DNA from: Clostridia bacterium
GTDB lineage: Bacteria > Bacillota > Clostridia > UBA1212 > UBA1255
Direction: 5' to 3'
Length of the DNA: 64,000 bases
NCBI GenBank assembly: GCA_017517275.1
Contig: JAFWZX010000038.1
Location: 388 to 64,387 of the forward strand
The notes below the pieces were generated by a model that saw only the letters and a list, made by a program, of their open reading frames with translations, was not told the origin of the DNA and made no database searches. The translations under genes were made by a program, and so were the position numbers. Below, piece after piece: positions 17,052-60,473 of the stretch (the stretch's first letter is position 1; the number at the start of each line of letters is the position of its first letter).

Positions 17052-17087
17052 ATATAAAGAAACGTGGTATATTACAATACACCACGT
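17052..17087 (-). terminator. terminator closing the mdh-to-transporter operon
   Basis: In the minus sense it reads ACGTGGT-gtattgtaatat-ACCACGT followed by TTCTTTATATAT, about 35 nt after the stop at 17121. Confidence 0.55.
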
Positions 17088-17120
17088 CGTCAATGTTTAA
17101 AATGTTTTTAATATACAATA

Positions 17121-18362
17121 TCAGAATAACAATATCAGGAACTGTGATACCAGTACTACTGCAATCAATGCAATAGGATACGTTGCAGCATAAGCTGCAG
17201 CAACGTCTTCCGTCTTAGCTACGTTAATGAGCGTACCCAGAGCCGGAGTACTTGTCATACCGCCTGTAATAGAACCAAGGTTATTGAGCAAGCTTAATTT
17301 GAGAACGTATTTTGCAAAAATATAGCCTACAATCATAGGGAAGATTGTCATGATTACACCGTAGATAAAATACGTAAGATTGAACAGTTCAATAAATTTA
17401 GCCCCGCCTGCAATACCGGCACCGATTAAGAATAACATCAATCCAAGTTCACGGAACACCTTAAGAGTATGCTCATCAGGCATAATAGAGATCTTGCCGA
17501 TTCGGTTGAAATGACCGAAGATAAGAGCTATCAGCAAACATCCTCCTGTTGTTGTCAATGAAAAGGTAGTGCCGCTTAATCCGTTTCCTGTAAGAGGAAT
17601 CTTTATAGCACCGACAAAAACACCTATAATGGCTGCCAGTGAAAAGGCTGCAAAACCAAATCCGTCAATGTGAATTAATTTGCCGTTGTAAATCTTTTGT
17701 TTACCCTCAGATACTAAAACGAGCTTCTTACGTTCATCGTCCATATTTGCCTTAGAAAACTTAGGCATAAGCTGTACAAATAATACAACGCCTATAACAC
17801 CGAAGATGTATGCAATACCGTGTCCCACAGATACAAGATTCTCAAGTTCAGGAGCAACAGTGTCCTTTGCCGCGGAAAATGCCGGTGTAGAAGTCAATGA
17901 ACCGGATAAAAGGCCTACAATCATAGCTGTAAATCCGTCGTTATCAAGTCCTCCTGTACCAACAGCTCTGCCAATATATATACATGCTATAGCAGAAACA
18001 CCGCCTGCAAGTATTACTATGAGACCCAAAAGTACGTAAGACTTAAAATTCTTTTTCATGTTTCCGAAGAATTTAGGTCCTGCGATAAAACCAACTGAAG
18101 TAACAAATAAAATCAATCCGAAAGTCTCAACTAATTTAAGCGATTTACCTATATCCATTCCGTTTGCTGTTAAATTCTCCTGAAGCTGAGTGTAGAACAA
18201 GCAACCAAATAATAAAGCTATAATAAATACGCCGGCTGTACCAAGAGATACACCCTTAATTGTAACCCTGCCAAGTAGATAACCAACAGCAGCAATCGCA
18301 AATACACAAAAAAGCAAGAATGCAACACCGTTTACGGTTATTACTCCTCCAAATAAATTCAT
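17121..18362 (-). CDS. AAE-family (AspT/YidE/YbjL, Asp-Al_Ex duplication) transporter; putative C4-dicarboxylate (succinate) exporter
   Basis: The product is 413 aa with two homologous halves of ~5 TM helices each. The N-terminus LGRVTIKGVSLGTAGVFIIALLFG is typical of the YidE/YbjL family. There is no central TrkA_C domain. Confidence 0.7.
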   Translation of the reverse strand: MNLFGGVITVNGVAFLLFCVFAIAAVGYLLGRVTIKGVSLGTAGVFIIALLFGCLFYTQLQENLTANGMDIGKSLKLVETFGLILFVTSVGFIAGPKFFGNMKKNFKSYVLLGLIVILAGGVSAIACIYIGRAVGTGGLDNDGFTAMIVGLLSGSLTSTPAFSAAKDTVAPELENLVSVGHGIAYIFGVIGVVLFVQLMPKFSKANMDDERKKLVLVSEGKQKIYNGKLIHIDGFGFAAFSLAAIIGVFVGAIKIPLTGNGLSGTTFSLTTTGGCLLIALIFGHFNRIGKISIMPDEHTLKVFRELGLMLFLIGAGIAGGAKFIELFNLTYFIYGVIMTIFPMIVGYIFAKYVLKLSLLNNLGSITGGMTSTPALGTLINVAKTEDVAAAYAATYPIALIAVVLVSQFLILLF

Positions 18363-18390
18363 TGTTATATTACCTCTTTCCCAAACTTAA

Positions 18391-19986
18391 TTACTTTCTC
18401 CTGTAATCAGGAAGCAGCTTAGGTGATACTGCATCTGTATCAAGGCCGGCTGCTTTAATTTCATTTTCGAATGCTTCAACATGTGCAAGAGTAAGCGTAC
18501 CCACTTGAACATCTTTACATTTTGCAGCTGCACTCTTACCTGCACTACGGCCAAACACAATAATATCGAGAAGTGAATTACCCATAAGCCTGTTTCTACC
18601 GTGTATTCCTCCCACTGCCTCACCTGCAACGAAGAGATTCTCTACGTTTGTTGTCATACAGTCAGCACTGATATCAAGACCGCCATTCTGATAATGAAGT
18701 GTGGGATAGACAAGAATCGGTTCTTTACGGATATCAATACCGTATTTACCAAACATACGCATCATAGCAGGAATTCTCGCTTCGATAGTGCCTTCTCCTC
18801 CGATTTTCTCAATCATAGGCGTATCAAGCCATACTGCAAGGCCGCTGCCTGTATCTATTCCGTTGCCTCTTGTGGAGCATTCACGAATAATGGAAGCTGC
18901 TGAAACGTCACGAGTTTCTAACGGATGCATAAATGCTTCGCCGTTTACGTTAATAAGTTTAGCGCCAAGAGATCGAACTTTCTCTGTAACCAAAGCACCA
19001 AAAATTTGTTCAGGATATGCGGCGCCTGTAGGATGATATTGAAGTGTATCTGCATAAAGGAGCTTTGCGCCGACACGGTAACCCAATACTAAACCGTCAG
19101 CGGTAGCTCCGTAATGGTTTGAGGTAGGGAATCCCTGGTAATGCATACGACCTGCACCGCCTGTTGATATAATAACTGTCTTTGCTTTAGCAACAAGCAG
19201 TTCTTTTGTCTCCATGTTAAGGAGAACTGCACCTGCAGCATTTCCTTTATCATCTAAAATCAGCTCTATTGCAGCAGTAAAATCAACTACCGGAATACCG
19301 CGATTGAGAACCTCATCACGAAGTGTACGCATAATCTCAGCACCCGAATAGTCTTTTGCAGCGTGCATACGCTTTCTTGACGTACCGCCGCCGTGTGTTG
19401 TAATCATGTTGCCTTCTGCATCTTTATCAAACTCAACTCCAAGATCGTTAAGCCATTTAATAGCATCAGGAGCATCACAAACGAGTTTTGATAAAAGCTC
19501 ACGTTTAGCAGCATAGTGACCGCCGCCAAAGGCATCTACAAAGTGAATTGCAGGAGAGTCATTTGCTTTATCTGCGGCCTGTATACCACCTTCTGCCATC
19601 ATTGTGTTGGCATCTCCGATACGAAGCTTTGTTACGATCATAACGTTAGCCCCAGCCTCATGAGCTTCGATTGCAGCTGAAGAGCCTGCGCCGCCGCCAC
19701 CGATAACAAGTACATCTACGTCATAATCAGGTTTATCAAGGTTAACACTGTCTGCGGTGATACGGCTGTGAGCCTGCAAAATCGCAGCCAATTCAACCGG
19801 TACCTTTTCACCTTTATTAGGACCGATCTTTAGCTCTGTAAATTGATCTTCTTTATAATCCGGATGATATGCCTTAAGCAAATCTTCTTTTTCCTGAGCC
19901 GTCATACGACGCGGTTCTAATTTTATATTATTCTCTCTTGCTGCCTCAACAGCCTTTAAGGATTCTGCAAATCTTTCAGGATACAT
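18391..19986 (-). CDS. fumarate reductase/succinate dehydrogenase-type flavoprotein (FrdA/TfrA-like, soluble)
   Basis: It has the FAD dinucleotide fold DVLVIGGGGAGSSAAIEA. The FrdA active-site counterparts are present: QYHPTG, TEKVRSLGA (Arg), LHYQNGG and HGRNRLMGNSLLD. Where SdhA/FrdA have the FAD-linking His (SHTVAAxGG), this protein has ANTMMAEGG. It also has a ~95-aa N-terminal extension. Confidence 0.8.
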   Translation of the reverse strand: MYPERFAESLKAVEAARENNIKLEPRRMTAQEKEDLLKAYHPDYKEDQFTELKIGPNKGEKVPVELAAILQAHSRITADSVNLDKPDYDVDVLVIGGGGAGSSAAIEAHEAGANVMIVTKLRIGDANTMMAEGGIQAADKANDSPAIHFVDAFGGGHYAAKRELLSKLVCDAPDAIKWLNDLGVEFDKDAEGNMITTHGGGTSRKRMHAAKDYSGAEIMRTLRDEVLNRGIPVVDFTAAIELILDDKGNAAGAVLLNMETKELLVAKAKTVIISTGGAGRMHYQGFPTSNHYGATADGLVLGYRVGAKLLYADTLQYHPTGAAYPEQIFGALVTEKVRSLGAKLINVNGEAFMHPLETRDVSAASIIRECSTRGNGIDTGSGLAVWLDTPMIEKIGGEGTIEARIPAMMRMFGKYGIDIRKEPILVYPTLHYQNGGLDISADCMTTNVENLFVAGEAVGGIHGRNRLMGNSLLDIIVFGRSAGKSAAAKCKDVQVGTLTLAHVEAFENEIKAAGLDTDAVSPKLLPDYRRK

Positions 19987-19998
19987 GAAACTACCTCC

Positions 19999-20673
19999 TT
20001 ATTTTTCAATATCTCTGTGATTGTAAAGCTCTTTAATCTCATCTACCGGCTTATTCATAAGGGCCTCGATAAGATCTGTGAATGTTCCGTCTTTAATCTC
20101 TTGTACTCTGTTCTCAAGATGAGCTGACTTAGGAGCAAGATATTTGCCGTTAAGTCTGCGCGCAAGCATTGCCACTTGAGGATGTGAGATTCCGGCAGGA
20201 CAACGTGATGAACATACGCCGCACATTACACAGTCAAATGATTCTTCTGCGCATTTCTCGTATTCTCCTCTTTGAGCGTATGCAATGTACTGCATTACGT
20301 TAAGATCCTGTGTACAACTCTTTGTACAAGCATTGCAACCGATACAAGCATAAATCTCAGGATAGAGTTGCATCATTATCTGTTCTGTAGGCTTTACTTC
20401 TTCAATGTTATATACTTCTTTAACAAGGGGGAAGAAAGGAAGTGTTGCAATATACATGTTGTCTTCTACCTTTGTTTGACAAGCAAGACATGCTTTTAAC
20501 TCTTTATCTCCTTTGATTCGATAAATCGTTGCGCACGCACCGCAAAATCCGTTACGGCATCCACAACCACGCACTAACTGATATCCTGCATATTCCATAG
20601 CAGTCATGATTGTAAGGTTCTCCGGCACTGTATATTTTTTACCGAATAAAAATATATTTACCATATTTTCCAT
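19999..20673 (-). CDS. iron-sulfur subunit, FrdB/SdhB-like (2Fe-2S + two Cys-cluster motifs)
   Basis: It has an N-terminal plant-ferredoxin-like motif (CGCRNGFCGAC...C), followed by CIGCNACTKSC and CVMCGVCSSRCP. The product is 224 aa. Confidence 0.75.
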   Translation of the reverse strand: MENMVNIFLFGKKYTVPENLTIMTAMEYAGYQLVRGCGCRNGFCGACATIYRIKGDKELKACLACQTKVEDNMYIATLPFFPLVKEVYNIEEVKPTEQIMMQLYPEIYACIGCNACTKSCTQDLNVMQYIAYAQRGEYEKCAEESFDCVMCGVCSSRCPAGISHPQVAMLARRLNGKYLAPKSAHLENRVQEIKDGTFTDLIEALMNKPVDEIKELYNHRDIEK

Positions 20674-20693
20674 CTTTATTATCCTCCTTGTTA

Positions 20694-21527
20694 TTAATAC
20701 TCATCAGGTAATTCTTCTAACTGGTCACAGCGGAATACCGGGCCGTCTTTGCAAACGTATTTTGAGCCAATATTACATCTTCCGCATTTGCCCACTCCGC
20801 ATTTCATGCGAAGCTCCATCGTTGTGTAAACCTGCTGTTTGTTGTAGCCCATAGAAATAAGGCCTTCTAACGTAAATTTAATCATTATCGGTGGGCCGCA
20901 GATAATTACTGTCTTATTTGTATCGAAATTAAGTTCTTTTACATAATTTGGTACGAATCCAACGTGTCCGTCCCAGCCTTCTTGTTCACGGTCGATAGTA
21001 AGGTGAACGTCAATACCGTCATCTTCCATCCACTCGTTAATGATTTCCTGATAATCTACCAGATCATCTTTACTTCTTGAACCATATACTATGTCAATCT
21101 TGCCGTATCTGTCTCTGTAGTGTCTGCAATAATTGATTACAGAACGTAGCGGTGCAAGGCCGATACCACCGGCAACAAACAGAAGATCTTTTCCCACAAA
21201 TGCGTCATCTACAGGGAACGGATTGCCGTAGGGACCTCTGATTGTTATTTGTTGTCCTACTTCTGCTTGGTGAAGCCACTCAGTAACACATCCGCATTTC
21301 TTTATTGAAAATTCCATATATTCTGTATTTGTAGGCGCAGACGTTATTGAAAACATTGCCTCGCCTACGCCCGGAATAGAAAGCATCGCGCATTGTCCGG
21401 GTTTATGGTCAAAAGCCTTCTTGCCATCCGGAGTGACAACTCGGAAAGTCTTAACATCCGGAGTATCTATACGTACGTCGGTAATCACACCGACTTTCGG
21501 AATCAAAGCTTCGTAATTAACGTCCAT
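20694..21527 (-). CDS. FAD/NAD(P)H-binding oxidoreductase with C-terminal 2Fe-2S (PyrK/AsrB/HydG/FlxA-like)
   Basis: It has an FNR-like fold with a GGIGLAP nucleotide motif and an FSITS flavin motif. The C-terminal motif is CGVGKCGRC...C. Confidence 0.8.
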   Translation of the reverse strand: MDVNYEALIPKVGVITDVRIDTPDVKTFRVVTPDGKKAFDHKPGQCAMLSIPGVGEAMFSITSAPTNTEYMEFSIKKCGCVTEWLHQAEVGQQITIRGPYGNPFPVDDAFVGKDLLFVAGGIGLAPLRSVINYCRHYRDRYGKIDIVYGSRSKDDLVDYQEIINEWMEDDGIDVHLTIDREQEGWDGHVGFVPNYVKELNFDTNKTVIICGPPIMIKFTLEGLISMGYNKQQVYTTMELRMKCGVGKCGRCNIGSKYVCKDGPVFRCDQLEELPDEY

Positions 21528-21528
21528 A

Positions 21529-22545
21529 TCATTCTTCTCCTAACTTCTTCATAACTTTAACAATATTCATTGAGATCGGGCATTTAGCCAAACATCTTCC
21601 GCAACCGACACAGCCAAAAATGCCTTCGTTGTTTTCCGGATAATATACAAGCTTGTGCATAAATCTCTGACGAAACCGCTCTACCTGGGAATTTCTTGAA
21701 TTACCGTGAGCCATTTTCGTAAAGTCTGAATACATGCAGGAATCCCAACAACGGAAACGAATGACGCCATTGCCTGTATCATAATCTTTTATATCATAGC
21801 ACTGACAAGTAGGACATACAAACGTACAAGTACCACAGCCTAAGCAAGCTTGTGACAACTCTTTCCATGCCGGAGAATTAAAGAATTCATTTGTTTTTCC
21901 GCCACCGAATTTCTCAGCGGAAAGATTCGCAAGAGGCAATCTTTCCATGATTCTGCGGGTCTTGTCTTGCTGAGCTGAAACTGCGCTGTCATCACATTCT
22001 TCAGTAAGACCGTCTAATTTAGCCAGCAATTTCTCTCCTTTGTCTGTATTTGCACGCATATATATACTGTCTTGTGTTTTCCAACAAGTAATATCACCGG
22101 CAGGATTTGCAGCATCAATATCAAACGTACCGCAAAAACACGTCTCTGCAGGTCTTGTACATGCCATAGAAATAATAACACTATGTGCTCTTCTATTTGC
22201 ATAATAGCTGTCAATAGGTTCTGAAAGGAAAACTCTGTCTAATATGTCAAAGCTTCTTACGTCACAGGCGCGAACACCAAATACAACAAAGTCTTCATTT
22301 TCATTTCTAACGTCAATGATATCAATCTGTTTTCCCGTTACTTTAAACTCTATTAAATTCTCAGTCTGCGGGAAGAAGAAATCTTTTGCGCTACGTACAG
22401 TATTAAGAGCGTCGCTCATCTGAACTCCGGGCTCCCAAAGCTTGTAGTTACTGCCGTTTTCACCGTCAACAGGCAGATAAAGCTTCTCATCTGCAGCAAT
22501 CTTTGCAAATATTGTATCTAATGCTTGTATTGAAAATTTACGCAT
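21529..22545 (-). CDS. Fe-S protein, AsrA/HydB/FlxB-like
   Basis: It carries CLGCGTCTFVCPTCQC and CVGCGRCLAKCP, plus the conserved WDSCMYSDFTKMAHGNSR block typical of AsrA-type subunits. Confidence 0.7.
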   Translation of the reverse strand: MRKFSIQALDTIFAKIAADEKLYLPVDGENGSNYKLWEPGVQMSDALNTVRSAKDFFFPQTENLIEFKVTGKQIDIIDVRNENEDFVVFGVRACDVRSFDILDRVFLSEPIDSYYANRRAHSVIISMACTRPAETCFCGTFDIDAANPAGDITCWKTQDSIYMRANTDKGEKLLAKLDGLTEECDDSAVSAQQDKTRRIMERLPLANLSAEKFGGGKTNEFFNSPAWKELSQACLGCGTCTFVCPTCQCYDIKDYDTGNGVIRFRCWDSCMYSDFTKMAHGNSRNSQVERFRQRFMHKLVYYPENNEGIFGCVGCGRCLAKCPISMNIVKVMKKLGEE

Positions 22546-22549
22546 ATTC

Positions 22550-23536
22550 TCACACTCCTCTGCCTACAGCTTCGCCGGGTTCAAGATCGTCAAACGTATA
22601 ATTGATAAGAGGTGCTCTGGAGCCTTCCTCCTGTCCTGCCTGGTAATCACCGTAGAAACTGTTAATGTCTTTAATGAACTTTCTGTTGAGCAAGTGAAGC
22701 GGAATTCCCTGAGGACATACTCTTGAGCATTCACCACAGTCCGTACATCTTCCGGCAACGTGGAATGCACGTATGATATGGAACATTTTTTCTTCAAAGC
22801 TGTCAGAAATCGCCTTGTTGTTTACGCTGGATTTCGGATTATCGAAAACACACTTTTCACACGTACACGCGGGGCAAATATCACGGCAAGCGTTACATCT
22901 TATGCATTTTGACAGTTGGCTTTGCCAGAAAGCAAAGCGCTCGTCTGCTGACATTTTTTCGATTTTTTCAACTTCGTCGAAGCGATTTGAATCAATTACG
23001 TCGCCTTCTTCACCCATAAGCTCGTCGTATACAACGTGTTTTTTGCTCTTACAGCTAAGACATCTTTCTGTAAGAACGTCTCCGTATGCAAGTGTCTTTT
23101 CTTCCTCGTAAAGATTCTTTACCGTAATAGAACCTTCACCTGGTATAACATCAATAATGCCCTCTCCGGCAAGAGCTTTAATCTTGCCGATATCTAACAT
23201 ACCTTCACAAGGAATGCCTACTGCATATACTTTTTCTCTTGAGAAACGGTGTTCTGTAAGAAGTTGGTTAAAGCTATAAGTGTCGCAGGGTTTTAAGAAT
23301 ACAAGCACCTTCTCTTCTGCTTTGCGCGTTTCTGCTATAAGATATTTTGAAAAATTAGCATTGCAAAAGTCATCAAAGATAAAATCTTTTTGAAGGTCTT
23401 CTTTTGTTGTGAAAACTGCCGGAGTTACGTCGTATGCAAACTCACCGATCTTCCAACCAAGAACTCTGCTCACAGTGCCGTTATCTAACAGTTCAATTGC
23501 TTTGTTTATGAGATTTTCCCGAGTTATCTTTTGCAT
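22550..23536 (-). CDS. Fe-S protein, FlxC-like (two 4Fe-4S binding motifs)
   Basis: It carries CIRCNACRDICPACTCEKC and CTDCGECSRVCP. The product is 328 aa, and its start overlaps the mvhD-like gene by 13 nt. Confidence 0.65.
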   Translation of the reverse strand: MQKITRENLINKAIELLDNGTVSRVLGWKIGEFAYDVTPAVFTTKEDLQKDFIFDDFCNANFSKYLIAETRKAEEKVLVFLKPCDTYSFNQLLTEHRFSREKVYAVGIPCEGMLDIGKIKALAGEGIIDVIPGEGSITVKNLYEEEKTLAYGDVLTERCLSCKSKKHVVYDELMGEEGDVIDSNRFDEVEKIEKMSADERFAFWQSQLSKCIRCNACRDICPACTCEKCVFDNPKSSVNNKAISDSFEEKMFHIIRAFHVAGRCTDCGECSRVCPQGIPLHLLNRKFIKDINSFYGDYQAGQEEGSRAPLINYTFDDLEPGEAVGRGV

Positions 23537-23961
23537 CTTAAGTCCTCCAATCTCTTATTTTCACCTAACGCAGCTACAGTCTGAGTAAAATCATTCATTG
23601 TTGCTGCAAATTTAGCACCCTCGGCAGCGGATACCCATTCTACACGTGTACGTTCTTTCTCAATACCAAGATATTCCAACATGGAGAATAACAGTGCCAT
23701 TCTTCTTCTGGTGTAATAGTTTCCTGACGTATAATGACAATCTCCCGGGTGGCAACCGCAAAGAATTACGCCGTCTGCACCGCGTTGGAAAGCACGCAAT
23801 ATAAACATTGGATTTACTCTGCATGAGCAAGGTACTCTAATAATCTTTACATTTTCAGGATATGCAAGACGATTGCTACCTGCAAGGTCTGCACCTGCAT
23901 ATGAACACCAGTTACAACAAAAAGCCACAATCTTAGGCTTATATTCACTATTTATCGACAT
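23524..23961 (-). CDS. mvhD: MvhD/FlxD-type iron-sulfur protein (methyl-viologen-reducing hydrogenase delta subunit family)
   Basis: It carries KIVAFCCNWCSYAGADLAG ... VPCSCRVNP ... DGVILCGCHPGDCHY, the canonical MvhD Cys pattern. The product is 145 aa. Confidence 0.88.
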   Translation of the reverse strand: MSINSEYKPKIVAFCCNWCSYAGADLAGSNRLAYPENVKIIRVPCSCRVNPMFILRAFQRGADGVILCGCHPGDCHYTSGNYYTRRRMALLFSMLEYLGIEKERTRVEWVSAAEGAKFAATMNDFTQTVAALGENKRLEDLRCKR

Positions 23962-25946
23962 ATTGCATCCACCTCCGCAATGATCTGAGCACTTTCAAAA
24001 CCGTTAAGGTCCATAGCGCCTGAAGGACAAGCTACCGTACATGCACCGCAACCTTGGCAGACAGCCGGATTGACAGATGCAACACGTCTTATGGCAGTAG
24101 TTCTGTTTGGCATACGGAACTCTTTGTCAATATATGAAATAGCACCGTAAGGACAAACGTTTGCACAAGATGAACAGCCGTTGCACATAAGCTCGTCAGC
24201 GTGTGCAACACATGGATTACTTGTAAGCTTATCTTTTGCAAGCAATCCGATAACTTTAGCTGCAGCTGCACTTGCCTGTGATACAGTTTCCGGAATATCC
24301 TTAGGTCCCTGACACGTACCTGACAGGAAAACGCCGGCAGTCGGACTCTCAACAGGACGAAGCTTTGGATGCGCTTCTGTGAAAAAGTCGTTTGTGTCCA
24401 TACTTGCAGTGAGCATTGTTGCGATTGATCTAGCTGATTTGTCAGGCTCTATTGCAGCAGCTAAAACAACCAGATCTGCTTCTATATGAAGTTGTTTATT
24501 TGCGAGAAGATCAGAAGCCTGAACCATAAGCTTATCGCCCTGAGGTGATACCTTGCCTACCATCCCCTTGATATAATGAACACCATATTCTTCTACCGCA
24601 CGACGATAGAACTCGTCGAAATTTTTACCGGGTGTACGAACGTCTATGTAGAATACGTAAACGTCAGTATCAGGATATTTATCTCTGGTGAGCATAGCGT
24701 GCTTTGCAGTGTACATACAGCAAATCTTTGAACAATATTCCTTGCCTTTGTCTGCACATGCAGCGCATCTTGAACCAACACACTGTACAAAAACGATAGT
24801 ATGAGGATGCTTTCCGTCAGAAGGACGAAGAAGCTTTCCTGCTGTGGGACCTGCCGCATTTGTAAGACGTTCGAATTCCAACGATGTAATAACGTCCTTC
24901 GACTGGTTATATGCATATTCATCAAATTTATCAAGGCTGATAGGGTTAAAACCTGTAGCTGCTACGATTGCACCGTACTGCTCTTCGATGATCTCATCTT
25001 TTTGTGTATAATCAATAGCGCCTGCCGTACATACCTTGGCACAAAGTCCGCACTTTCCTGTCTTAAGCATTGTACAATAGTCTGCATCAATAGTTGCAAC
25101 CTTAGGTACTGCCTGAGCAAAAGGAATATATACAGCTCTTCTGTTATCCATACCAAGGTTAAATTCGTTAGGCACCTTTTTCTGTGGACACTTCTCTGTA
25201 CAGATACCGCAACCCGTACATACATCCTCTTTTACAAAGCGAGCTTTTTTCTTTATTTTTACATTAAAATTACCAACAAAACCTTTTACTTCCTGAACTT
25301 CACTATATGAGAAAATTCTGATATTTTCGTTTTGTGCAACGTCAACCATCTTAGGTGTGAGAATACATGCCGCACAGTCAAGTGTCGGGAACGTTTTGTC
25401 AATCTGTGCCATCTTACCGCCGATTGTAGGTTTCTTCTCCACGATATCAACAGGAAAACCTGCTTCTGCGATATCTAAAGCTGTCTGAATACCTGCAATG
25501 CCGCCTCCGATTACGAGAGCTCTTTTTGTAACCGGAGTCTGACCAGGAATAAGAGGCGCGTTGAGATTTACTTTTGCAACTGCAGCGCGGCCTAATATAA
25601 TAGCTTTCTGAGTACCGGTCTCCATATCTTTGTGAATCCACGAACATTGTTCTCGGATATTGGCAATCTCTACCATATACGGATTAAGGCCGGCGGCCTG
25701 TGCTGTCTTACGGAATGTGGCTTCATGCATTCTCGGAGAACATGAACATACGACAACACCTGTTAACTTGTGTTCTTTAATAGCTTCCTTAATAATCTCC
25801 TGTCCCGCCTGTGAACACATGTATTGATAATCTGTGGAAAAGACAACACCGGGTTCACTTCTAAGAGCCTCAGCTACAGCCTTAACATCTACAGTACCTG
25901 CGATATTACTACCGCACCAGCATACGAATACACCAATTCTTTGCAT
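23952..25946 (-). CDS. hdrA: heterodisulfide reductase subunit A-like flavoprotein (HdrA)
   Basis: It has an N-terminal Cys domain (IGVFVCWCGSNIAG) and the FAD fold ALVIGGGIAGIQTALDIAEAG. An inserted ferredoxin domain (CTGCGICTEKCP, CGLCAKVCTAGA), CVGSR and a C-terminal 2x4Fe-4S domain (CNGCSSCANVCP, CQGCGACTVACP) are also present. The product is 664 aa. Confidence 0.9.
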   Translation of the reverse strand: MQRIGVFVCWCGSNIAGTVDVKAVAEALRSEPGVVFSTDYQYMCSQAGQEIIKEAIKEHKLTGVVVCSCSPRMHEATFRKTAQAAGLNPYMVEIANIREQCSWIHKDMETGTQKAIILGRAAVAKVNLNAPLIPGQTPVTKRALVIGGGIAGIQTALDIAEAGFPVDIVEKKPTIGGKMAQIDKTFPTLDCAACILTPKMVDVAQNENIRIFSYSEVQEVKGFVGNFNVKIKKKARFVKEDVCTGCGICTEKCPQKKVPNEFNLGMDNRRAVYIPFAQAVPKVATIDADYCTMLKTGKCGLCAKVCTAGAIDYTQKDEIIEEQYGAIVAATGFNPISLDKFDEYAYNQSKDVITSLEFERLTNAAGPTAGKLLRPSDGKHPHTIVFVQCVGSRCAACADKGKEYCSKICCMYTAKHAMLTRDKYPDTDVYVFYIDVRTPGKNFDEFYRRAVEEYGVHYIKGMVGKVSPQGDKLMVQASDLLANKQLHIEADLVVLAAAIEPDKSARSIATMLTASMDTNDFFTEAHPKLRPVESPTAGVFLSGTCQGPKDIPETVSQASAAAAKVIGLLAKDKLTSNPCVAHADELMCNGCSSCANVCPYGAISYIDKEFRMPNRTTAIRRVASVNPAVCQGCGACTVACPSGAMDLNGFESAQIIAEVDAICR

Positions 25947-25960
25947 TTGTCTTTCCCTCC

Positions 25961-26359
25961 TTATTTATGATATTTTCTTAAAGCACTTACGATAGCCTGC
26001 TGCGGCAGATCCTCTTCTACCATTGCAGGAATACTGTCAGGCTTCATATGATTTGCGCCTTGTTTACGAATTACCTCAAGACGTACGGCTTCAACTAATT
26101 TTGCAGGTTCAACGCCTCTCGGGCATCTGTCCACACATGCAAAGCATGTAAGACACTGGTACAGCGAATTGCTGTTCATAAGAGGCTCGATGTCTCCGCT
26201 CTCTACCATGTACACAAATTGATGCGGATGATATTCCATAGTATCAAATGCAGGACACGTAGCCGTGCATTTACCGCAGCGCATGCATTTTACCGGATTA
26301 ACACCGCTTCTGCGTATAATCTCGCTGCGAACGTTGTCATTCTTGTTATGCATTTGCAT
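25961..26359 (-). CDS. hdrC: heterodisulfide reductase subunit C-like (2 x 4Fe-4S)
   Basis: It carries CMRCGKCTATCP and CLTCFACVDRCP. The product is 132 aa. Confidence 0.85.
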   Translation of the reverse strand: MQMHNKNDNVRSEIIRRSGVNPVKCMRCGKCTATCPAFDTMEYHPHQFVYMVESGDIEPLMNSNSLYQCLTCFACVDRCPRGVEPAKLVEAVRLEVIRKQGANHMKPDSIPAMVEEDLPQQAIVSALRKYHK

Positions 26360-27137
26360 CCTCCTTTACTCCAAATGCTTCTGCCATAAGCTCTGTGAAA
26401 TATACAACGGGAATAGGACTTCCGTTTTTCTCCAGGTTGTATTTGCAAAGCGGGCATGCCGTTACAATCAGGTCAGCGCCGCTGTTATAAGCACTTTCTG
26501 TTACTTTATGACTTCTCAAAGCGGAAAACTCAGGATTTTCAAGAGTTATATAGCCGCCGCAACATTCATTTCTTTCTGAATATATTACAGGCTCTGCACC
26601 AAGCGCCCTGATAAGATCTTCCATAATAGTAGGATTTTCAGGATCATCTGTATGCATAACACTGTTTGGACGAAGTAGCAGGCAACCGTAATAAGCCGCA
26701 ACTTTTTTGCCTGCAAGTGAATTTATTACCTTCTTCGCAACATTGTCGTATCCTACTTTGTCTCTTAATAGCTCAAGATAGTGAAGTATCTCGGTAGTGC
26801 CGTCATACTCTTCACCTTTGCCAAGATAATTGTTGACACGTTGTGCAAATTCAGCGTCGTTTTGCATCGCGTAATTCGTCTGCTTGATAACGTTGTGGCA
26901 AGCAGAACAAACAGTCACCAGAACATTGTTGTTTTTCTTGGCAGCAGATAAGGCTCTTACGGATGAAAGTTTGGTTGCCACTTCGTCGCGTGAGGTAGTA
27001 AATACGCCGCCGCAGCACTGCCAATCTTCAACCTCTTCAAGAGAAACGTCAAGTATTTCAGCGCACTTCCTTGCATATCTGTCAAGCTCTTTTGCTTTTG
27101 TTTTTAATGTACAGCCCGGAAAGTATGCCACCTTCAT
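26346..27137 (-). CDS. hdrB: heterodisulfide reductase subunit B-like (two CCG domains)
   Basis: It has two Cx(n)CCGx(n)CxxC units: PGC...QCCGG...CSAC and YGC...ECCGG...CPLC. The product is 263 aa. Confidence 0.85.
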   Translation of the reverse strand: MKVAYFPGCTLKTKAKELDRYARKCAEILDVSLEEVEDWQCCGGVFTTSRDEVATKLSSVRALSAAKKNNNVLVTVCSACHNVIKQTNYAMQNDAEFAQRVNNYLGKGEEYDGTTEILHYLELLRDKVGYDNVAKKVINSLAGKKVAAYYGCLLLRPNSVMHTDDPENPTIMEDLIRALGAEPVIYSERNECCGGYITLENPEFSALRSHKVTESAYNSGADLIVTACPLCKYNLEKNGSPIPVVYFTELMAEAFGVKEDANA

Positions 27138-27156
27138 TTAATATTGCCTCCTTTTA

Positions 27157-28533
27157 TTAAACCATCTGTTCAGGATGGAAAACTTCATCAAATTTTTCTG
27201 CTGTAAGGAAGCCAAGTTCTACGCATGCTTCTTTAAGCGAAATATTATCTTTAAATGCTTTTTTTGCTGTCTTAGCGGCATTTTCATATCCGATATACGG
27301 ATTAAGAGCCGTAACAAGCATTAATGAATTATGCAGATTATGGTGCATTTTTTCCTTATTAGCCTTGATACCTACTGCACAATTCTTATTGAAAGACAGA
27401 ATTGCTTCTGCTAAAAGTCTTGCCGACTGTAAAAAATTGTAAATACATACCGGCATAAATACGTTGAGTTCAAAGTTTCCTTGGGAAGCTGCCATGCCAA
27501 CGGCTACGTCATTTCCCATAACCTGAACGGCAACCATTGTAACGGCTTCACACTGTGTCGGATTAACTTTTCCGGGCATAATTGATGATCCCGGTTCATT
27601 TTCCGGAATATAAATCTCTCCCAATCCGTCTCTGGGTCCGCTTGCAAGCCACCTTACGTCATTTGCGATTTTCATCATGTCGCAAGCAAGAGCCTTAATA
27701 GCTCCATGAGCAAATACTATCTCATCTTTTGATGTAAGTGAATGGAACTTATTGGCAGCTGTTACAAAGGGCTTGCCGGTAAGACCTGCAACCTCAGCTG
27801 CCACAACCTCACCAAAGCCTTTTGGTGCATTCAAGCCTGTACCTACAGCAGTACCGCCTAATGCCAGTTCACAAAGTGGTGCGATAGAACGTTCAATAAG
27901 CTCGACGTCTTTTTCAAGACTTGATCTCCAGCCGCTTATTTCCTGGCTAAAAGTAATAGGTGTTGCATCCTGTAAATGGGTTCTGCCGCTTTTTACAATA
28001 CCTTCGTTCTCTATTTCAAGGTGTCTGAAAGTATCAATTAATGTACGTGCAGCCGGAATAAGCTTATTTTCAAGCATCAAAACAGCTGCAATGTGCATAG
28101 CAGTAGGGAAAGTATCATTCGAAGACTGACTCATATTAACGTCATCATTTGGGTGCAGAAGCTTTTTACCTGCAATCTCATTACCTCTGTTGGCGATTAC
28201 TTCGTTAGAGTTCATATTAGATTGAGTTCCGGAACCGGTTTGCCATACAACTAAAGGGAAATTATGGTTCTGTTTACCTGCAATAATCTCGTCACAAGCA
28301 GTAGAAATAGCAACCAGCTTTTCTGACGTCATCTTTTCCGGACGAAGCTTATGGTTAGCCTGGGCCGCTGCCTTTTTCAGTATTCCGAACGCATGGATAA
28401 TCTCCATAGGCATTGTTTCAATATTAACACCAATTTCAAAATTCTCGTGACTTCTTTGTGTTTGGGCTGCCCAAAGCTTATCGGCAGGTACTCTTACCTC
28501 GCCCATAGAGTCATGTTCGATACGATATTCCAT
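27157..28533 (-). CDS. fumC: class II fumarate hydratase
   Basis: It has the signature [16 protein letters not shown], plus [12 protein letters not shown] and THLQDA. The product is 458 aa. Confidence 0.93.
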
Positions 28534-28566
28534 TTTTAATCCTCCCGTAATCTCTGTGAAAATTAC

Positions 28567-29499
28567 TTAAATCTCAACGCTTGCTATCGTTGCTTTGAGA
28601 GCATCTGCACTCTTTTGAAGTTGCGCAATCTCATCGTCAGTAAGCGGAATGTCCACTTTACTCTTAACACCGTTGCGATCAATAATATTAAGAGTACTAA
28701 GGCAAACATCACTGATACCGTACTCACCGTTCATCATTGTTGATACAGGAAGAACAGTAGGCACACCGTCAATAATAGCTCTGCATATTGCACATACAGC
28801 AATTGAAATTGCATAATATGTAGCACCTTTGCGCTCAATAACCTTTCCGCCTGCTTTACGAACGTACTCTTCTGCTTCCTCGCGATTAAGCTCGTAATCA
28901 ACGTCGAAAGCTTTGCTGCACTGATCCAACGGAATACCGCAAATATTTGCATTTGACCACGGAACAAATGATGAGTCGCCATGTTCGCCCAATACGTAAG
29001 CATGTACGTTTTCATGTCCAATCTCATATTTTTCTGAAAGATACGCACTAAGACGTGCTGTATCGATTGTATTACCGGAACCAATTATTCTGTTGAGCGG
29101 GATACCGGAACACTTGCAGAATGCATATGTAAGTACGTCTACAGGATTGCTTACCAAAACGTATATTGCCTCAGGAACACGACGTGTAATTTCCGGAATA
29201 ACGCTCTTTAAAATGTCAATATTAACCTGAGCAAGTTCAAGTCTTGATTGACCGGGTTTTCTGCCCACACCGGATGTGATAATAACAATATCTGAACCTA
29301 TAGCATCATCATACGTGCCACCATAAATTTTTCCTGGATTACAGAAAAAGATACCTTGTTCGATATCCAGCGCTTCGCCCTCAGCTCTTGCTTGATTAAT
29401 ATCAATAAGAACGATTTCCGATGAGAGACCGGAAACAACTAATGAGTGTGCAATTGTTGCGCCAACCTTTCCACTTCCGATAATTGTAATTTTGTTCAT
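28567..29499 (-). CDS. mdh: LDH-like malate dehydrogenase (L-2-hydroxyacid dehydrogenase, Arg at the substrate-discriminating position)
   Basis: It has the Rossmann motif KITIIGSGKVGAT and a catalytic His in GEHGDS. The substrate loop GVGRKPGQSRLEL has Arg where LDHs carry Gln (..NQKPGETRLDL). Confidence 0.8.
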   Translation of the reverse strand: MNKITIIGSGKVGATIAHSLVVSGLSSEIVLIDINQARAEGEALDIEQGIFFCNPGKIYGGTYDDAIGSDIVIITSGVGRKPGQSRLELAQVNIDILKSVIPEITRRVPEAIYVLVSNPVDVLTYAFCKCSGIPLNRIIGSGNTIDTARLSAYLSEKYEIGHENVHAYVLGEHGDSSFVPWSNANICGIPLDQCSKAFDVDYELNREEAEEYVRKAGGKVIERKGATYYAISIAVCAICRAIIDGVPTVLPVSTMMNGEYGISDVCLSTLNIIDRNGVKSKVDIPLTDDEIAQLQKSADALKATIASVEI

Positions 29500-29596
29500 A
29501 CTTTCTACCTCTTTTTTCCACTTTCTCTAATGCTACGGCTATTTACAACCATGCAAAAAGCCACCTATTGTTCCAAATTAACACATAGGCTTTGCG

Positions 29597-29625
29597 ATTG
29601 TATCACTTTTATTTCTTTTTTACAA
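29597..29625 (-). promoter_or_regulatory. putative sigma-A promoter of the mdh-fumC-hdr-flx-frd operon
   Basis: In the minus sense it reads TTGTAA - 17 nt - TACAAT, about 95 nt upstream of the mdh ATG (29499). Confidence 0.5.
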
Positions 29626-60130: not shown

Positions 60131-60233
60131 TTCTGATACACTCCTTTTGGTTCGTACTTTTGCGGCAAATAAAAAATCGCCTTAATTCAATAATCATAAG
60201 ATTATATGAATAGAGACGAAAATGTTATCATAT

Positions 60234-60450
60234 CCGCGGTACCACTCTAATTAACAGACTCCGTTTGGCTGTGTGCCTCCCATTTATCCGTTCCCTCAAA
60301 GTGCAGTTAACGCCTGCCCATACGTCTTTGGTTACTGTGCTTCGCCAAAGCTGCTCCGGAACGAGTTCACATGAATCTAATGCATATCCCGTCTCACCAT
60401 CCCGGGACTCTCTGAAACGCCGACACCAGCTACTACTTTCCTTCATCGCA
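60234..60450 (-). promoter_or_regulatory. T-box riboswitch leader (tRNA-sensing) upstream of the acyl-CoA-synthetase-like gene
   Basis: In the minus sense, Stem I starts with UGCGAUGA (GA/K-turn), followed by an AGUAGUA box. An AGAGAG bulge and a distal hairpin UCCCG-GGAUGGUGAGA-CGGGA (GGUGNRA-type loop) follow. An F-box-like GCGUUA and the near-consensus T-box sequence AAUUAGAGUGGUACCGCGG (60234-60252) complete the set. The specifier codon and expression platform could not be assigned by eye. Confidence 0.85.
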
Positions 60451-60473
60451 TTTATCAATATTAAATTGGATGA

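What the first reader, a model, noticed from the sequence alone, without database searches (positions are those of the whole stretch)
17121..29625. One operon joins Mdh-FumC to HdrABC, a FlxABCD-type NAD(P)H module and a soluble FrdAB-like pair: candidate electron-bifurcating fumarate reductase
Seen in the sequence: twelve co-oriented genes run from 29499 down to 17121, with spacings from a 14-nt overlap to a 33-nt gap. In order these are mdh -33- fumC -19- hdrB -overlap14- hdrC -14- hdrA -overlap10- mvhD/flxD -overlap13- flxC -4- flxB -1- flxA -20- frdB-like -12- frdA-like -28- transporter. A TTGTAA-17-TACAAT promoter lies upstream and a hairpin terminator lies downstream, so this looks like a single ~12.4 kb transcription unit. 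No FrdC/D-type membrane anchor is present in the unit. Established knowledge: HdrA flavoproteins are the bifurcating core of MvhADG-HdrABC. FlxABCD-HdrABC was described in Desulfovibrio as an NADH-linked Hdr complex. Methanogen thiol:fumarate reductase TfrAB combines an FrdA-like flavoprotein with a subunit carrying FrdB-type clusters and HdrB-type CCG domains. Inference: NAD(P)H enters at FlxA and HdrA-FAD bifurcates. The high-potential branch would run HdrC/HdrB -> FrdB -> FrdA -> fumarate (about +30 mV), and the low-potential branch would reduce ferredoxin. This would let a fermenter conserve energy from fumarate reduction without relying on a quinone-linked membrane enzyme, for example via Rnf or H2 production. 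I know of no biochemically characterised enzyme with this subunit composition.
Basis: partly seen in the sequence, partly recalled or inferred. Interest (0 to 1): 0.9.

Follow-up and report, generated by a model that had tools for sequence, protein, structure and literature searches.

The report
Hdr/Flx-linked soluble fumarate reductase operon
A gut Clostridia genome has a 12-gene operon that joins the malate-fumarate-succinate steps to an HdrABC/FlxABCD electron-splitting module; it is real and conserved in many gut species, but this enzyme type was already proposed in 2019-2020 and has not been tested biochemically.

Summary
Twelve co-oriented minus-strand genes (29499 to 17121) have exactly the reported spacings. 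They encode an LDH-family malate dehydrogenase, FumC, HdrB, HdrC, HdrA, MvhD/FlxD, FlxC, FlxB, FlxA, an FrdB-like Fe-S protein, an FrdA-like flavoprotein and an AspT/YidE-family transporter.

HdrA aligns full length to the structurally solved bifurcating HdrA. All Fe-S cysteines of HdrB, HdrC and FrdB are invariant. FrdA-like keeps the His/Arg/His/Arg dicarboxylate site, but lacks the covalent-FAD histidine and the C-terminal domain, and has a family-specific 90-residue N-terminal extension.

In 80 species-level genomes of gut and rumen Clostridia, flxA-frdB sits directly upstream of frdA in 70 of 71 informative loci. In distant environmental relatives (about 50% identity) frdBA is still next to hdr, flx or kor genes, in many different gene orders.

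The best reading is a soluble NADH-dependent fumarate reductase that probably also reduces ferredoxin by bifurcation. This is not new. The same "succinate operon" was described in Pseudoclostridium thermosuccinogenes (PMC7282089, citing a 2019 preprint), and a related cluster in tubeworm symbionts (PMC6315080). I found no biochemical proof.

The parts
29597..29625 (-). sigma-70-like promoter candidate, TTGTAA-17-TACAAT with an extended -10 TG
   Evidence: It is a consensus match only and is not enriched over shuffles.
28567..29499 (-). Ldh/Mdh-family NAD dehydrogenase (310 aa), predicted malate dehydrogenase
   Evidence: Ldh_1_N and Ldh_1_C domains. The best NCBIfam models are L-LDH, above cut-off. 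Arg replaces the LDH Gln at the specificity position (GVGRKPGQSR against APQKPGETR of 2zqy_A). That Arg is present in 46 of 46 orthologs.
27157..28533 (-). class II fumarate hydratase FumC (458 aa)
   Evidence: TIGR00979 scores 712 bits against a cut-off of 664.75. The aspA models fall below their cut-offs.
26346..27137 (-). HdrB-like subunit (263 aa) with two CCG domains
   Evidence: PF02754 matches twice. It aligns to the HdrB of 8rvv, 8rvu and 5odc. The ten CCG cysteines are invariant in 58 of 58 sequences. The best NCBIfam hits are SdhE of methylmenaquinol:fumarate reductase and HdrB, both below cut-off.
25961..26359 (-). HdrC-like subunit (132 aa) with two [4Fe-4S] motifs
   Evidence: All 8 Cys are invariant in 59 of 59 sequences.
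23952..25946 (-). HdrA flavoprotein (664 aa), the putative bifurcating FAD site
   Evidence: 700.9 bits, residues 3-662 aligned to 5-649 of 5odc_A. All Fe-S motifs and the DCxxC motif are conserved in the alignment.
23524..23961 (-). MvhD/FlxD (145 aa)
   Evidence: PF02662 FlpD, 188.9 bits.
22550..23536 (-). FlxC-like Fe-S protein (328 aa)
   Evidence: Fer4 dicluster at residues 207-278. The cysteines are conserved.
21529..22545 (-). FlxB-like Fe-S protein (338 aa), related to AsrA and sulfhydrogenase beta
   Evidence: Fer4_22. ShyB, HydB and AsrA models hit below cut-off. It matches 9nez_B at 9.8e-48.
20694..21527 (-). FlxA-like NAD(P)H-binding flavoprotein with a [2Fe-2S] cluster (277 aa)
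   Evidence: FAD_binding_6, NAD_binding_1 and DHODB_Fe-S_bind domains. HydG and AsrB models hit.
19999..20673 (-). FrdB-like Fe-S subunit (224 aa): an SdhB-type [2Fe-2S] motif plus two full CxxCxxCxxxC(P) motifs
   Evidence: Twelve Cys are invariant in 81 of 81 sequences. A natural FrdB-FrdA fusion exists (P0121).
18391..19986 (-). FrdA-like flavoprotein (531 aa), the putative fumarate-reducing subunit
   Evidence: FAD_binding_2 at residues 91-472 and no Succ_DH_flav_C. The best NCBIfam model is TfrA at 334 bits, below the 718 cut-off. H318, R359, H431 and R466 match SdhA H242, R286, H354 and R399. The AF2 model (pLDDT 86.7) is closest to E. coli FrdA, TM 0.71.
17121..18362 (-). AspT/YidE/YbjL-family (Asp-Al_Ex) permease (413 aa), putative succinate exporter
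   Evidence: PF06826 at 194.8 bits and TIGR01625. It is present downstream of frdA in 51 of 72 related loci.
17061..17088 (-). terminator-like hairpin followed by a T-rich tail
54766..56523 (-). GTP-dependent PEP carboxykinase; a pathway partner, not part of the operon
   Evidence: NF003253 scores 879.5 bits against a cut-off of 504.

Best explanation
The operon encodes the reductive branch from oxaloacetate to succinate, built around one soluble multi-subunit fumarate reductase.

Shown:
- The gene content and the operon layout.
- The intact cofactor motifs.
- The conserved linkage of frdBA with hdr and flx genes.

Inferred:
- NADH is oxidised at FlxA (FAD, [2Fe-2S]).
- Electrons pass through the FlxB and FlxC Fe-S clusters and the MvhD/FlxD [2Fe-2S] cluster to the FAD of HdrA.
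- HdrA-FAD bifurcates. One electron goes downhill through HdrC and the two non-cubane clusters of HdrB into the FrdB-like chain ([4Fe-4S], [4Fe-4S], [2Fe-2S]). From there it reaches the non-covalent FAD of FrdA-like, which reduces fumarate. The other electron goes uphill through the ferredoxin domains of HdrA to ferredoxin.
- Net reaction: 2 NADH + Fd(ox) + fumarate -> 2 NAD+ + Fd(red) + succinate.
- Mdh and FumC supply fumarate from PEPCK-derived oxaloacetate, and the AspT/YidE-family permease exports succinate.
- HdrCB plus FrdBA together correspond to a split methanogen thiol:fumarate reductase (TfrAB). Here it would be wired directly to HdrA rather than fed by free thiols.
For: - Twelve tightly packed co-oriented genes lie between a promoter-like site and a terminator-like hairpin.
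- HdrA is a full-length homolog of the crystallised bifurcating HdrA: 700.9 bits, all cluster motifs and DCxxC conserved.
- All 10 CCG Cys of HdrB, all 8 Cys of HdrC and 12 Cys of FrdB are invariant across 58 to 81 orthologs.
- FrdA-like keeps the dicarboxylate-binding and catalytic residues, invariant across the family. These are H318, E335, R338, R359, H431 and R466. It folds like FrdA/SdhA.
- A natural FrdB-FrdA fusion (P0121) shows that the pair works together.
- Linkage in genomes: flxA-frdB directly upstream of frdA in 70 of 71 loci, hdrA in 57 of 58, hdrB in 56 of 57, across 80 species.
- Linkage in distant relatives: in 48 informative environmental loci, the gene directly upstream of frdB is hdrB (27), flxA (7), flxC-like (5), korG (2) or mvhD (1). 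This holds across at least six different gene orders.
- TfrB is matched piecewise by FrdB-like, HdrC-like and HdrB-like. FrdB-like itself has no CCG domain, so it cannot oxidise thiols the way TfrB does.
- fumC, an R102-type mdh and a GTP-PEPCK in the same window point to the reductive direction.
- Published RNA-seq in P. thermosuccinogenes shows that the equivalent operon is co-regulated, about 4-fold (PMC7282089).
Against: - There is no biochemical evidence anywhere that I could find.
- NADH to fumarate is strongly exergonic on its own, so bifurcation is not required.
- Relatives of the FrdAB-like pair work without HdrA: frdB-frdA-nuoF-like (L084-L086), frdBA alone (L081, L082, L115), hdrC-hdrB-frdBA alone (L137), and L054 within the close clade. 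The pair can therefore take electrons from other donors.
- The fully conserved HdrB disulfide-reductase site could still serve an unknown thiol/disulfide couple.
- A physical contact between HdrB or HdrC and FrdB is inferred from gene order only.
- Rnf, hydrogenases and menaquinone genes of this genome could not be examined.
Confidence: 0.6

Rival explanations
1. It is a non-bifurcating NADH:fumarate reductase. Flx, MvhD and Hdr act only as an electron wire from NADH to FrdAB, and no ferredoxin is reduced.
For: NADH to fumarate is exergonic by itself (established redox potentials). A gammaproteobacterial relative pairs frdBA simply with a NuoF-like NADH module (L084-L086).
Against: A complete bifurcation-type HdrA, with both ferredoxin domains and all cluster motifs, is maintained at a median 86% identity across species. 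That is costly for a mere wire. The simpler FrdBA-NuoF solution exists elsewhere but is not used here.
Confidence: 0.15
2. It is a two-enzyme system coupled by a diffusible thiol/disulfide. FlxABCD-HdrABC would reduce an unknown disulfide (as proposed for DsrC in Desulfovibrio), and the thiol would then reduce fumarate through a Tfr-like enzyme.
For: All ten CCG cysteines of the HdrB active site are invariant. Stand-alone hdrC-hdrB-frdB-frdA units exist that look like a split thiol:fumarate reductase (L137 and others). Methanogens do couple Hdr and Tfr through CoM/CoB thiols (established knowledge).
Against: The operon has only one HdrB/HdrC pair, and FrdB-like has no CCG domain. No separate thiol-oxidising site is therefore available. 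No thiol-carrier gene was recognised in the operon.
Confidence: 0.1
3. The complex runs in reverse (confurcation). Succinate oxidation to fumarate would be driven by simultaneous oxidation of reduced ferredoxin, yielding NADH, in a succinate-consuming or oxidative-TCA context.
For: Flavin-based bifurcating enzymes are generally reversible (established knowledge). Related clusters sit next to 2-oxoglutarate:ferredoxin oxidoreductase genes.
Against: The non-covalent FAD (no His at the SHT position) favours fumarate reduction. So do the co-operonic R102-type Mdh and FumC, the GTP-PEPCK nearby and an exporter-family permease. The P. thermosuccinogenes homolog belongs to a succinate producer (PMC7282089).
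Confidence: 0.07
4. FrdA-like acts on a different substrate, as an L-aspartate oxidase or as a reductase for another enoate.
For: It passes no NCBIfam cut-off. NadB models score nearly as high as SdhA/FrdA models. The transporter belongs to the aspartate:alanine exchanger family.
Against: The best model is TfrA. The fumarate-site residues are invariant. The neighbouring lyase passes the fumC cut-off but not the aspA cut-off. From memory of NadB, the position of its Asp-specific Glu121 is His here and variable in the family; this was not verified with a tool.
Confidence: 0.05

Closest known systems
'Succinate operon' of Pseudoclostridium thermosuccinogenes (CDQ83_RS03365-03315; PMC7282089, citing preprint 10.20944/preprints201912.0288.v1)
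   Same: The composition and logic are the same: fumarate hydratase, a seven-gene Flx-Hdr complex, a two-gene fumarate reductase and a putative succinate transporter in one unit. The authors proposed that it couples fumarate reduction to ferredoxin reduction, and found it co-regulated in RNA-seq.
   Different: The window operon adds an mdh at the 5' end, and it comes from a mesophilic ruminant-gut Clostridia MAG. Neither system has been characterised biochemically.
rTCA gene clusters of tubeworm symbionts and Thioflavicoccus mobilis (korABCD + tfrAB interspersed with flxABCD-hdrABC; PMC6315080)
   Same: A soluble Tfr-like fumarate reductase pair is linked to Flx/Hdr genes. The authors proposed one complex that delivers electrons directly to the fumarate reductase. 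The environmental loci L083, L088-L092 and L117-L126 found here have this kor-hdr-(flx)-frdBA layout.
   Different: That context is autotrophic (reverse TCA, with OGOR). The window has no kor genes and a fermentative context.
FlxABCD-HdrABC of Desulfovibrio vulgaris (Ramos et al. 2015, as cited in PMC7282089 and PMC6315080)
   Same: The seven-subunit domain set is the same: FlxA (NAD(P)H/FAD/[2Fe-2S]), FlxB and FlxC (Fe-S), FlxD (MvhD), and HdrA, HdrB and HdrC.
   Different: The proposed high-potential acceptor there is a disulfide (DsrC). Here an FrdAB-like pair is encoded in the same operon and no DsrC was recognised. The gene order is hdrBCA-flxDCBA.
MvhADG-HdrABC of methanogens (PDB 5odc and related)
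   Same: HdrA, HdrB, HdrC and MvhD are homologous over their full length, with all cluster ligands conserved.
   Different: The input is an NADH module (FlxABC) rather than a [NiFe] hydrogenase. The presumed acceptor is fumarate through FrdAB rather than CoM-S-S-CoB.
Thiol:fumarate reductase TfrAB of Methanothermobacter (Heim et al. 1998)
   Same: TfrA is the best-scoring curated model for FrdA-like. TfrB is matched piecewise by FrdB-like (residues 19-94), HdrC-like (133-220) and HdrB-like (262-484). The enzyme is soluble with no membrane anchor.
   Different: The scores are far below the equivalog cut-offs (334 against 718). TfrB is one fused protein, whereas here the parts are three genes. 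FrdA-like lacks the TfrA C-terminal region and has an extra 90-residue N-terminal extension. The electron donor would be NADH through HdrA, not free thiols.
Complex II quinol:fumarate reductase / succinate dehydrogenase (for example E. coli FrdABCD, 1kf6)
   Same: The flavoprotein fold is shared (TM 0.71), as are the His/Arg/His/Arg active site and an SdhB-type [2Fe-2S] motif in the Fe-S subunit.
   Different: There is no membrane anchor, no covalent-FAD histidine and no Succ_DH_flav_C domain. The third cluster motif has four Cys, predicting [4Fe-4S] rather than [3Fe-4S].

Membership tests
Flx-Hdr-linked soluble fumarate reductase ('succinate operon' type, PMC7282089) | One co-oriented cluster with fumarate hydratase, seven flx/hdr genes, two fumarate-reductase genes and a putative succinate transporter | tested here: met
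   The same layout is found in 46 complete loci of other species.
Flx-Hdr-linked soluble fumarate reductase ('succinate operon' type, PMC7282089) | Sequence orthology to the P. thermosuccinogenes proteins CDQ83_RS03315-03365 | not tested
   Those sequences were not retrievable. The single genome-contig scan returned only the 80 closest species.
Flx-Hdr-linked soluble fumarate reductase ('succinate operon' type, PMC7282089) | NADH- and fumarate-dependent ferredoxin reduction (bifurcation) | not testable with these tools
   This needs anaerobic enzyme assays. No published assay was found.
FlxABCD-HdrABC | HdrA with FAD and the full set of [4Fe-4S] motifs | tested here: met
   700.9 bits, full-length alignment to 5odc_A with the Cys motifs conserved.
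FlxABCD-HdrABC | HdrB with two CCG motifs (ten Cys) and HdrC with two [4Fe-4S] motifs | tested here: met
   The cysteines are invariant in 58 of 58 and 59 of 59 sequences. The curated HdrB and HdrC equivalog cut-offs are not reached, as expected for non-methanogen homologs.
FlxABCD-HdrABC | FlxA (NAD(P)H/FAD/[2Fe-2S]), FlxB and FlxC (Fe-S) and FlxD (MvhD-like) encoded next to hdrABC | tested here: met
   Domain content. Orthology to the Desulfovibrio proteins was not tested.
FlxABCD-HdrABC | A disulfide (DsrC-type) as the high-potential acceptor | not tested
   No DsrC was recognised among the ORFs scanned, but small ORFs of the window were not searched systematically.
Complex II Frd/Sdh | Flavoprotein with FAD_binding_2 plus the Succ_DH_flav_C C-terminal domain | tested here: not met
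   Only FAD_binding_2 is found (residues 91-472). The protein ends about 40 residues after the last FAD motif.
Complex II Frd/Sdh | Histidine for covalent 8-alpha-FAD linkage (S-H-T motif) | tested here: not met
   The query has D-A-N-T where SdhA and FrdA have R-S-H-T in the alignments.
Complex II Frd/Sdh | Dicarboxylate-binding and catalytic His, Arg, His, Arg | tested here: met
   H318, R359, H431 and R466 align with E. coli SdhA H242, R286, H354 and R399. They are invariant in the family alignment A1.
Complex II Frd/Sdh | Fe-S subunit with [2Fe-2S], [4Fe-4S] and [3Fe-4S] motifs | tested here: not met
   The [2Fe-2S] motif is present (C39-x4-C44-x2-C47-x17-C65). Both ferredoxin motifs are complete CxxCxxCxxxC, so two [4Fe-4S] clusters are predicted.
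Complex II Frd/Sdh | Membrane anchor subunit(s) FrdC/D or SdhC/D | tested here: not met
   None is present in the operon.
Thiol:fumarate reductase TfrAB | TfrA equivalog score | tested here: not met
   NF004900 scores 334.4 bits against a cut-off of 718. Only model positions 6-426 of 546 are covered.
Thiol:fumarate reductase TfrAB | TfrB as one protein fusing FrdB-type clusters with two CCG domains | tested here: not met
   FrdB-like has no CCG domain. The CCG domains are in the separate HdrB gene.
L-aspartate oxidase NadB | Equivalog score | tested here: not met
   TIGR00551 scores 256.7 against a cut-off of 452.75.
L-lactate dehydrogenase (for the first gene) | HMM cut-off and Gln at the substrate-specificity position (Q102) | tested here: not met
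   The HMM cut-offs are met (NF000824 at 354.4 against 339; TIGR01771 at 333.2 against 303.55). The specificity residue is Arg, as in malate dehydrogenases, in 46 of 46 orthologs.

The most novel reading that the evidence does not exclude
This would be a first-in-class flavin-based electron-bifurcating fumarate reductase. The two non-cubane clusters of HdrB would act as a through-wire into an FrdB-type Fe-S chain rather than as a disulfide-reducing site. NADH oxidation with fumarate would then generate reduced ferredoxin. The enzyme would be the standard, quinone-independent route to succinate, with energy conservation through Rnf or H2, in a large block of gut and rumen Oscillospirales. It would be one branch of a wider modular family in which FrdBA is paired with HdrCB, HdrA-MvhD, FlxABC, Kor or NuoF-like modules.
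Probability: 0.5. Interest if true: 0.8.

Novelty: new member of a known kind. Interest (0 to 1): 0.5.

Why it matters
If the complex really bifurcates, succinate-forming Firmicutes without menaquinone would gain reduced ferredoxin from fumarate reduction, and through Rnf or hydrogenases ATP or H2. That would change the energy and hydrogen budgets assumed for rumen and gut fermentation models. It would also add fumarate to the short list of high-potential acceptors of HdrA-type bifurcation.

The survey adds two things to the published proposal. First, the operon is present, almost invariant, in at least 80 species-level genomes of gut and rumen Clostridia. These include a cultured strain (Yeguia hominis NSJ-40), which makes the question experimentally approachable. 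Second, the hdrB-frdB adjacency persists through many rearrangements in distant lineages. That is the strongest available in-silico argument for a physical HdrCB-FrdBA unit.

Tried and rejected
- Literature: nine full-text searches for a biochemical characterisation found only the P. thermosuccinogenes and tubeworm-symbiont proposals.
- The 2019 preprint itself is not held.
- The RNF review and the CRISPRi paper contain nothing on this enzyme.
- Multi-subunit modelling was not attempted, because the tool returns neither coordinates nor PAE, so an interface could not be judged (one search showed that no model files are available).
- A search for an RNA leader or operator in the 5' region found nothing. 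Rfam found only a T-box elsewhere, and one weak AT-rich inverted repeat was seen.
- The promoter scan is not above chance, so the promoter is not claimed as shown.
- L-aspartate oxidase, a flavocytochrome-c-type enzyme and urocanate reductase were each considered for FrdA-like. They were rejected on model scores, active-site residues and neighbouring genes.
- The count of 591 relatives comes from generic FAD-motif patterns, so it is not used as a family size.

Full report
**Observation**

The ORF table shows twelve consecutive minus-strand ORFs from 29499 down to 17121. Their coordinates give the spacings +33, +19, -14, +14, -10, -13, +4, +1, +20, +12 and +28 nt, exactly as reported.

The upstream intergenic region contains TTGTAA-17-TACAAT with a TG before the -10, at 29625-29597. 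A 12-pair hairpin followed by a T-rich tail lies at 17088-17061, directly after the last stop codon. Promoter-like matches are no more frequent in this region than in shuffles (34 against 32.7). The promoter is therefore only plausible; the terminator-like hairpin has the longest stem in the region.

Flanking genes are unrelated housekeeping genes: a metallophosphoesterase, a PpiC-type protein, an Exo_endo_phos protein and TyrS/TrpS-type tRNA synthetase. No Rfam element lies in the leader.

**Gene identities**

- Gene 1 is an Ldh/Mdh-family dehydrogenase. It passes the L-LDH HMM cut-offs, and its closest solved structures are all L-LDHs. At the position where LDHs have Gln (APQKPGETR in 2zqy_A) it has Arg (GVGRKPGQSR). 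This is the classical LDH-to-MDH specificity switch (established knowledge), and the Arg is present in 46 of 46 orthologs. I therefore accept "mdh", on that residue rather than on the HMM.
- Gene 2 passes the class II fumarase cut-off and fails the aspartase cut-offs.
- HdrB has two CCG domains and HdrC two [4Fe-4S] motifs.
- HdrA (664 aa) aligns over residues 3-662 with the crystallised HdrA of Methanothermococcus (5odc_A, 700.9 bits). Every Cys motif and the DCxxC motif is conserved.
- MvhD/FlxD matches FlpD (189 bits).
- FlxB resembles AsrA and the sulfhydrogenase beta subunit (9nez_B). FlxA has the FAD_binding_6, NAD_binding_1 and [2Fe-2S] architecture of AsrB and HydG. FlxC is a further Fe-S protein.
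- The last gene is an AspT/YidE/YbjL-family permease. From my own knowledge, this family also contains the Corynebacterium succinate exporter SucE.

**The FrdAB-like pair**

FrdA-like (531 aa) has only the FAD_binding_2 domain (residues 91-472). Its best curated model is TfrA, at 334 bits against a cut-off of 718. SdhA/FrdA and NadB models follow, and it passes none.

Alignment to E. coli SdhA (1nek_A) places H318, R359, H431 and R466 on SdhA H242, R286, H354 and R399. The LVTE motif is also conserved. These residues are invariant in the family alignment A1. The covalent-FAD histidine is replaced (DANT against RSHT), and the C-terminal helical domain is absent.

In its place there is a 90-residue N-terminal extension with its own conserved motifs (HPDY; G-x-N-x-G-E). 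It is shared by only about ten 50%-identity clusters among 1.8 billion representatives. The AF2 model is confident (pLDDT 86.7, pTM 0.89), including the extension. Its closest folds are E. coli FrdA (TM 0.71), SdhA, flavocytochrome c3 and NadB.

FrdB-like (224 aa) has an SdhB-type [2Fe-2S] motif and two complete CxxCxxCxxxC motifs. Its twelve Cys are invariant in 81 of 81 sequences, so two [4Fe-4S] clusters are predicted rather than a [3Fe-4S]. One relative (P0121, 727 aa) is a natural FrdB-FrdA fusion.

**Origin and distribution**

The exact FrdA-like protein is MBR3839458.1, annotated "MAG: FAD-binding protein [Clostridia bacterium]".

A scan of one genome per species returned 80 loci from 80 species with 74-91% identical FrdA-like proteins. 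All are gut or rumen Clostridia. They include Acutalibacteraceae, Oscillospiraceae, Ruminococcus spp., Faecousia, Congzhengia and the cultured Yeguia hominis NSJ-40 (PMC8140505).

tblastn of the twelve window proteins against these loci gave the following counts, wherever the contig reaches far enough:

| Gene(s) near frdA | Loci with the gene / informative loci |
|---|---|
| flxA-frdB directly upstream | 70 / 71 |
| hdrA | 57 / 58 |
| hdrB | 56 / 57 |
| fumC | 52 / 55 |
| mdh | 44 / 54 |
| transporter | 51 / 72 |

The single exception is L054, a Congzhengia MAG. There frdBA follows pyrimidine-biosynthesis genes, ptsI and a CitMHS-family transporter.

**Distant relatives**

Because those 80 species are close relatives, I also looked at distant members.

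- Context look-ups found frdA-frdB alone in a cluster that includes Prochlorococcus sp. MIT 1201.
- They also found the fused frdBA alone (L082).
- In Gammaproteobacteria MAGs, frdB-frdA is followed by a NuoF-like NADH/FMN subunit (L084-L086).
- L083 has fer4-korABG-hdrA-mvhD-hdrC-hdrB-frdB-frdA.

A metagenome scan seeded with that last protein gave 79 further loci, at 47-88% identity to it and about 50% to the window protein. Among the 48 with at least 1.1 kb upstream of frdB, the gene directly upstream is hdrB in 27. It is flxA in 7, flxC-like in 5, korG in 2 and mvhD in 1. Four loci have no recognised partner.

At least six different gene orders occur:
- kor-hdrA-mvhD-hdrC-hdrB-frdBA.
- A divergent kor/mvhD/hdrA block facing hdrC-hdrB-frdBA.
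- hdrC-hdrB-frdBA-hdrA-mvhD.
- kor-hdrA-mvhD-flxCBA-frdBA.
- mdh-hdrCBA-kor-frdBA.
- The window order, in L143.

Several loci carry only hdrC-hdrB-frdB-frdA; in L137 the upstream genes are unrelated. The linkage with Hdr genes therefore survives deep divergence and repeated rearrangement. The most persistent adjacency is hdrB-frdB.

**Mechanism**

The following points are shown:
- A complete NADH-input module (FlxABC).
- MvhD.
- A bifurcation-type HdrA.
- HdrC.
- HdrB with both non-cubane cluster sites under purifying selection.
- An Fe-S/flavoprotein pair with an intact fumarate site.
- All of these in one operon with the enzymes that make fumarate. A GTP-PEPCK lies 25 kb away in the same window.

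NCBIfam maps TfrB piecewise onto FrdB-like (TfrB 19-94), HdrC-like (133-220) and HdrB-like (262-484). HdrCB plus FrdBA thus looks like a split thiol:fumarate reductase.

The operon has only one HdrBC pair, and FrdB-like has no CCG domain. A diffusible thiol shuttle between two separate enzymes is therefore hard to accommodate.

The simplest inference is direct wiring. Electrons would flow from NADH through FlxA, FlxB/C and MvhD to HdrA-FAD. From there one branch would run through HdrC, HdrB, FrdB and FrdA-FAD to fumarate. The other would run through the HdrA ferredoxin domains to ferredoxin.

Standard potentials are about -320 mV for NADH, +30 mV for fumarate and -420 to -500 mV for ferredoxin (established knowledge). 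With these, 2 NADH + Fd(ox) + fumarate is exergonic by a few tens of kJ/mol. This calculation is my inference.

The non-covalent FAD fits a reductase rather than a succinate dehydrogenase.

**What argues for caution**

- NADH to fumarate needs no bifurcation.
- The FrdBA module evidently works with other donors: a NuoF-like subunit, HdrCB alone, or none encoded nearby.
- The conserved HdrB site could still bind an unknown disulfide.
- No contact between HdrB or HdrC and FrdB has been observed.

I put 0.6 on the bifurcating model. I put somewhat more on the weaker statement that Flx/Hdr delivers electrons from NADH to this fumarate reductase.

**Comparison with the literature**

The idea has been published. 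Koendjbiharie et al. (PMC7282089) describe a "succinate operon" in Pseudoclostridium thermosuccinogenes. It has fumarate hydratase, a seven-gene Flx-Hdr complex, a two-gene fumarate reductase and a putative succinate transporter. It is about 4-fold co-regulated under CO2 limitation. [quoted passage not shown] Rubin-Blum et al. (PMC6315080) noted korABCD and tfrAB interspersed with flxABCD-hdrABC in tubeworm symbionts and Thioflavicoccus mobilis. They proposed a complex that shuttles electrons directly to OGOR and the fumarate reductase. A 2024 preprint lists Sdh/Frd as a STRING neighbour of HdrA in Ruminococcus champanellensis.

Further searches found no enzymological or structural proof. No PDB entry contains such a complex.

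**Verdict**

It is, however, a new member of an already proposed and still unproven kind, not a discovery of a new kind.

This analysis adds four things:
- The breadth of the operon in gut and rumen Oscillospirales.
- A cultured carrier.
- The modular picture of the FrdBA family.
- The persistent hdrB-frdB adjacency, which supports a physical HdrCB-FrdBA unit.

I score interest at 0.5. The question of whether an electron-bifurcating fumarate reductase exists is open and important for gut and rumen energetics. It was already posed before this window was read.

Noticed in passing
window 54766-56523 (-): A GTP-dependent PEP carboxykinase (NF003253, 879.5 bits, above cut-off) lies 25 kb from the operon. 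It matches the PEPCK-Mdh-fumarase-Frd route described for P. thermosuccinogenes.
   Followed up: partly
window 60209-60455 (-), upstream of 58397-60130 (-): A full-length T-box leader (123.5 bits) precedes a fatty-acid-CoA-ligase-family AMP-binding enzyme rather than an aminoacyl-tRNA synthetase or an amino-acid gene. This is an unusual T-box target.
   Followed up: partly
window 28567-29499 (-): The 'mdh' passes the L-LDH HMM cut-offs and is closest to solved L-LDHs, but it carries Arg at the Gln102 specificity position in all 46 orthologs. It looks like an LDH-lineage enzyme recruited as a malate dehydrogenase.
   Followed up: yes
L082 5250-7433 (protein P0121): This is a natural fusion of the FrdB-like and FrdA-like proteins (727 aa). 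It sits on a contig with no hdr or flx genes in the 5 kb upstream.
   Followed up: partly
L084-L086, 9366-12891: Gammaproteobacteria MAGs carry frdB-frdA followed by a NuoF-like subunit (Complex1_51K, NADH_4Fe-4S). This looks like a three-subunit soluble NADH:fumarate reductase without any Hdr.
   Followed up: partly
L081 10001-12357: A frdA-frdB pair in reversed order, 44% identical, stands alone in a cluster that includes Prochlorococcus sp. MIT 1201. Its electron donor is unknown.
   Followed up: no
L137 7871-11665 (also L138, L142, L146, L149, L162): Four-gene units hdrC-hdrB-frdB-frdA occur with no hdrA nearby and unrelated genes upstream. They resemble a split thiol:fumarate reductase in bacteria.
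   Followed up: partly
L054 8079-11605: This is the one close relative (Congzhengia MAG, 81% identical FrdA) in which frdBA is not next to hdr/flx. It follows a CitMHS-family transporter, ptsI and pyrimidine-biosynthesis genes.
   Followed up: partly
L001-L080: Conservation is uneven within the operon. FrdA, FrdB, HdrA, MvhD, FlxA and FumC have median identities of 82-88%. HdrB, HdrC, FlxB and FlxC have 64-70%, and Mdh 59%. Yeguia hominis (63.6% GC) still shares 82% FrdA identity with this roughly 40% GC window.
   Followed up: no
L164/L165 and L135/L136: Some environmental loci carry three to six HdrA paralogs around frdBA, with mvhD and flxC-like genes.
   Followed up: no
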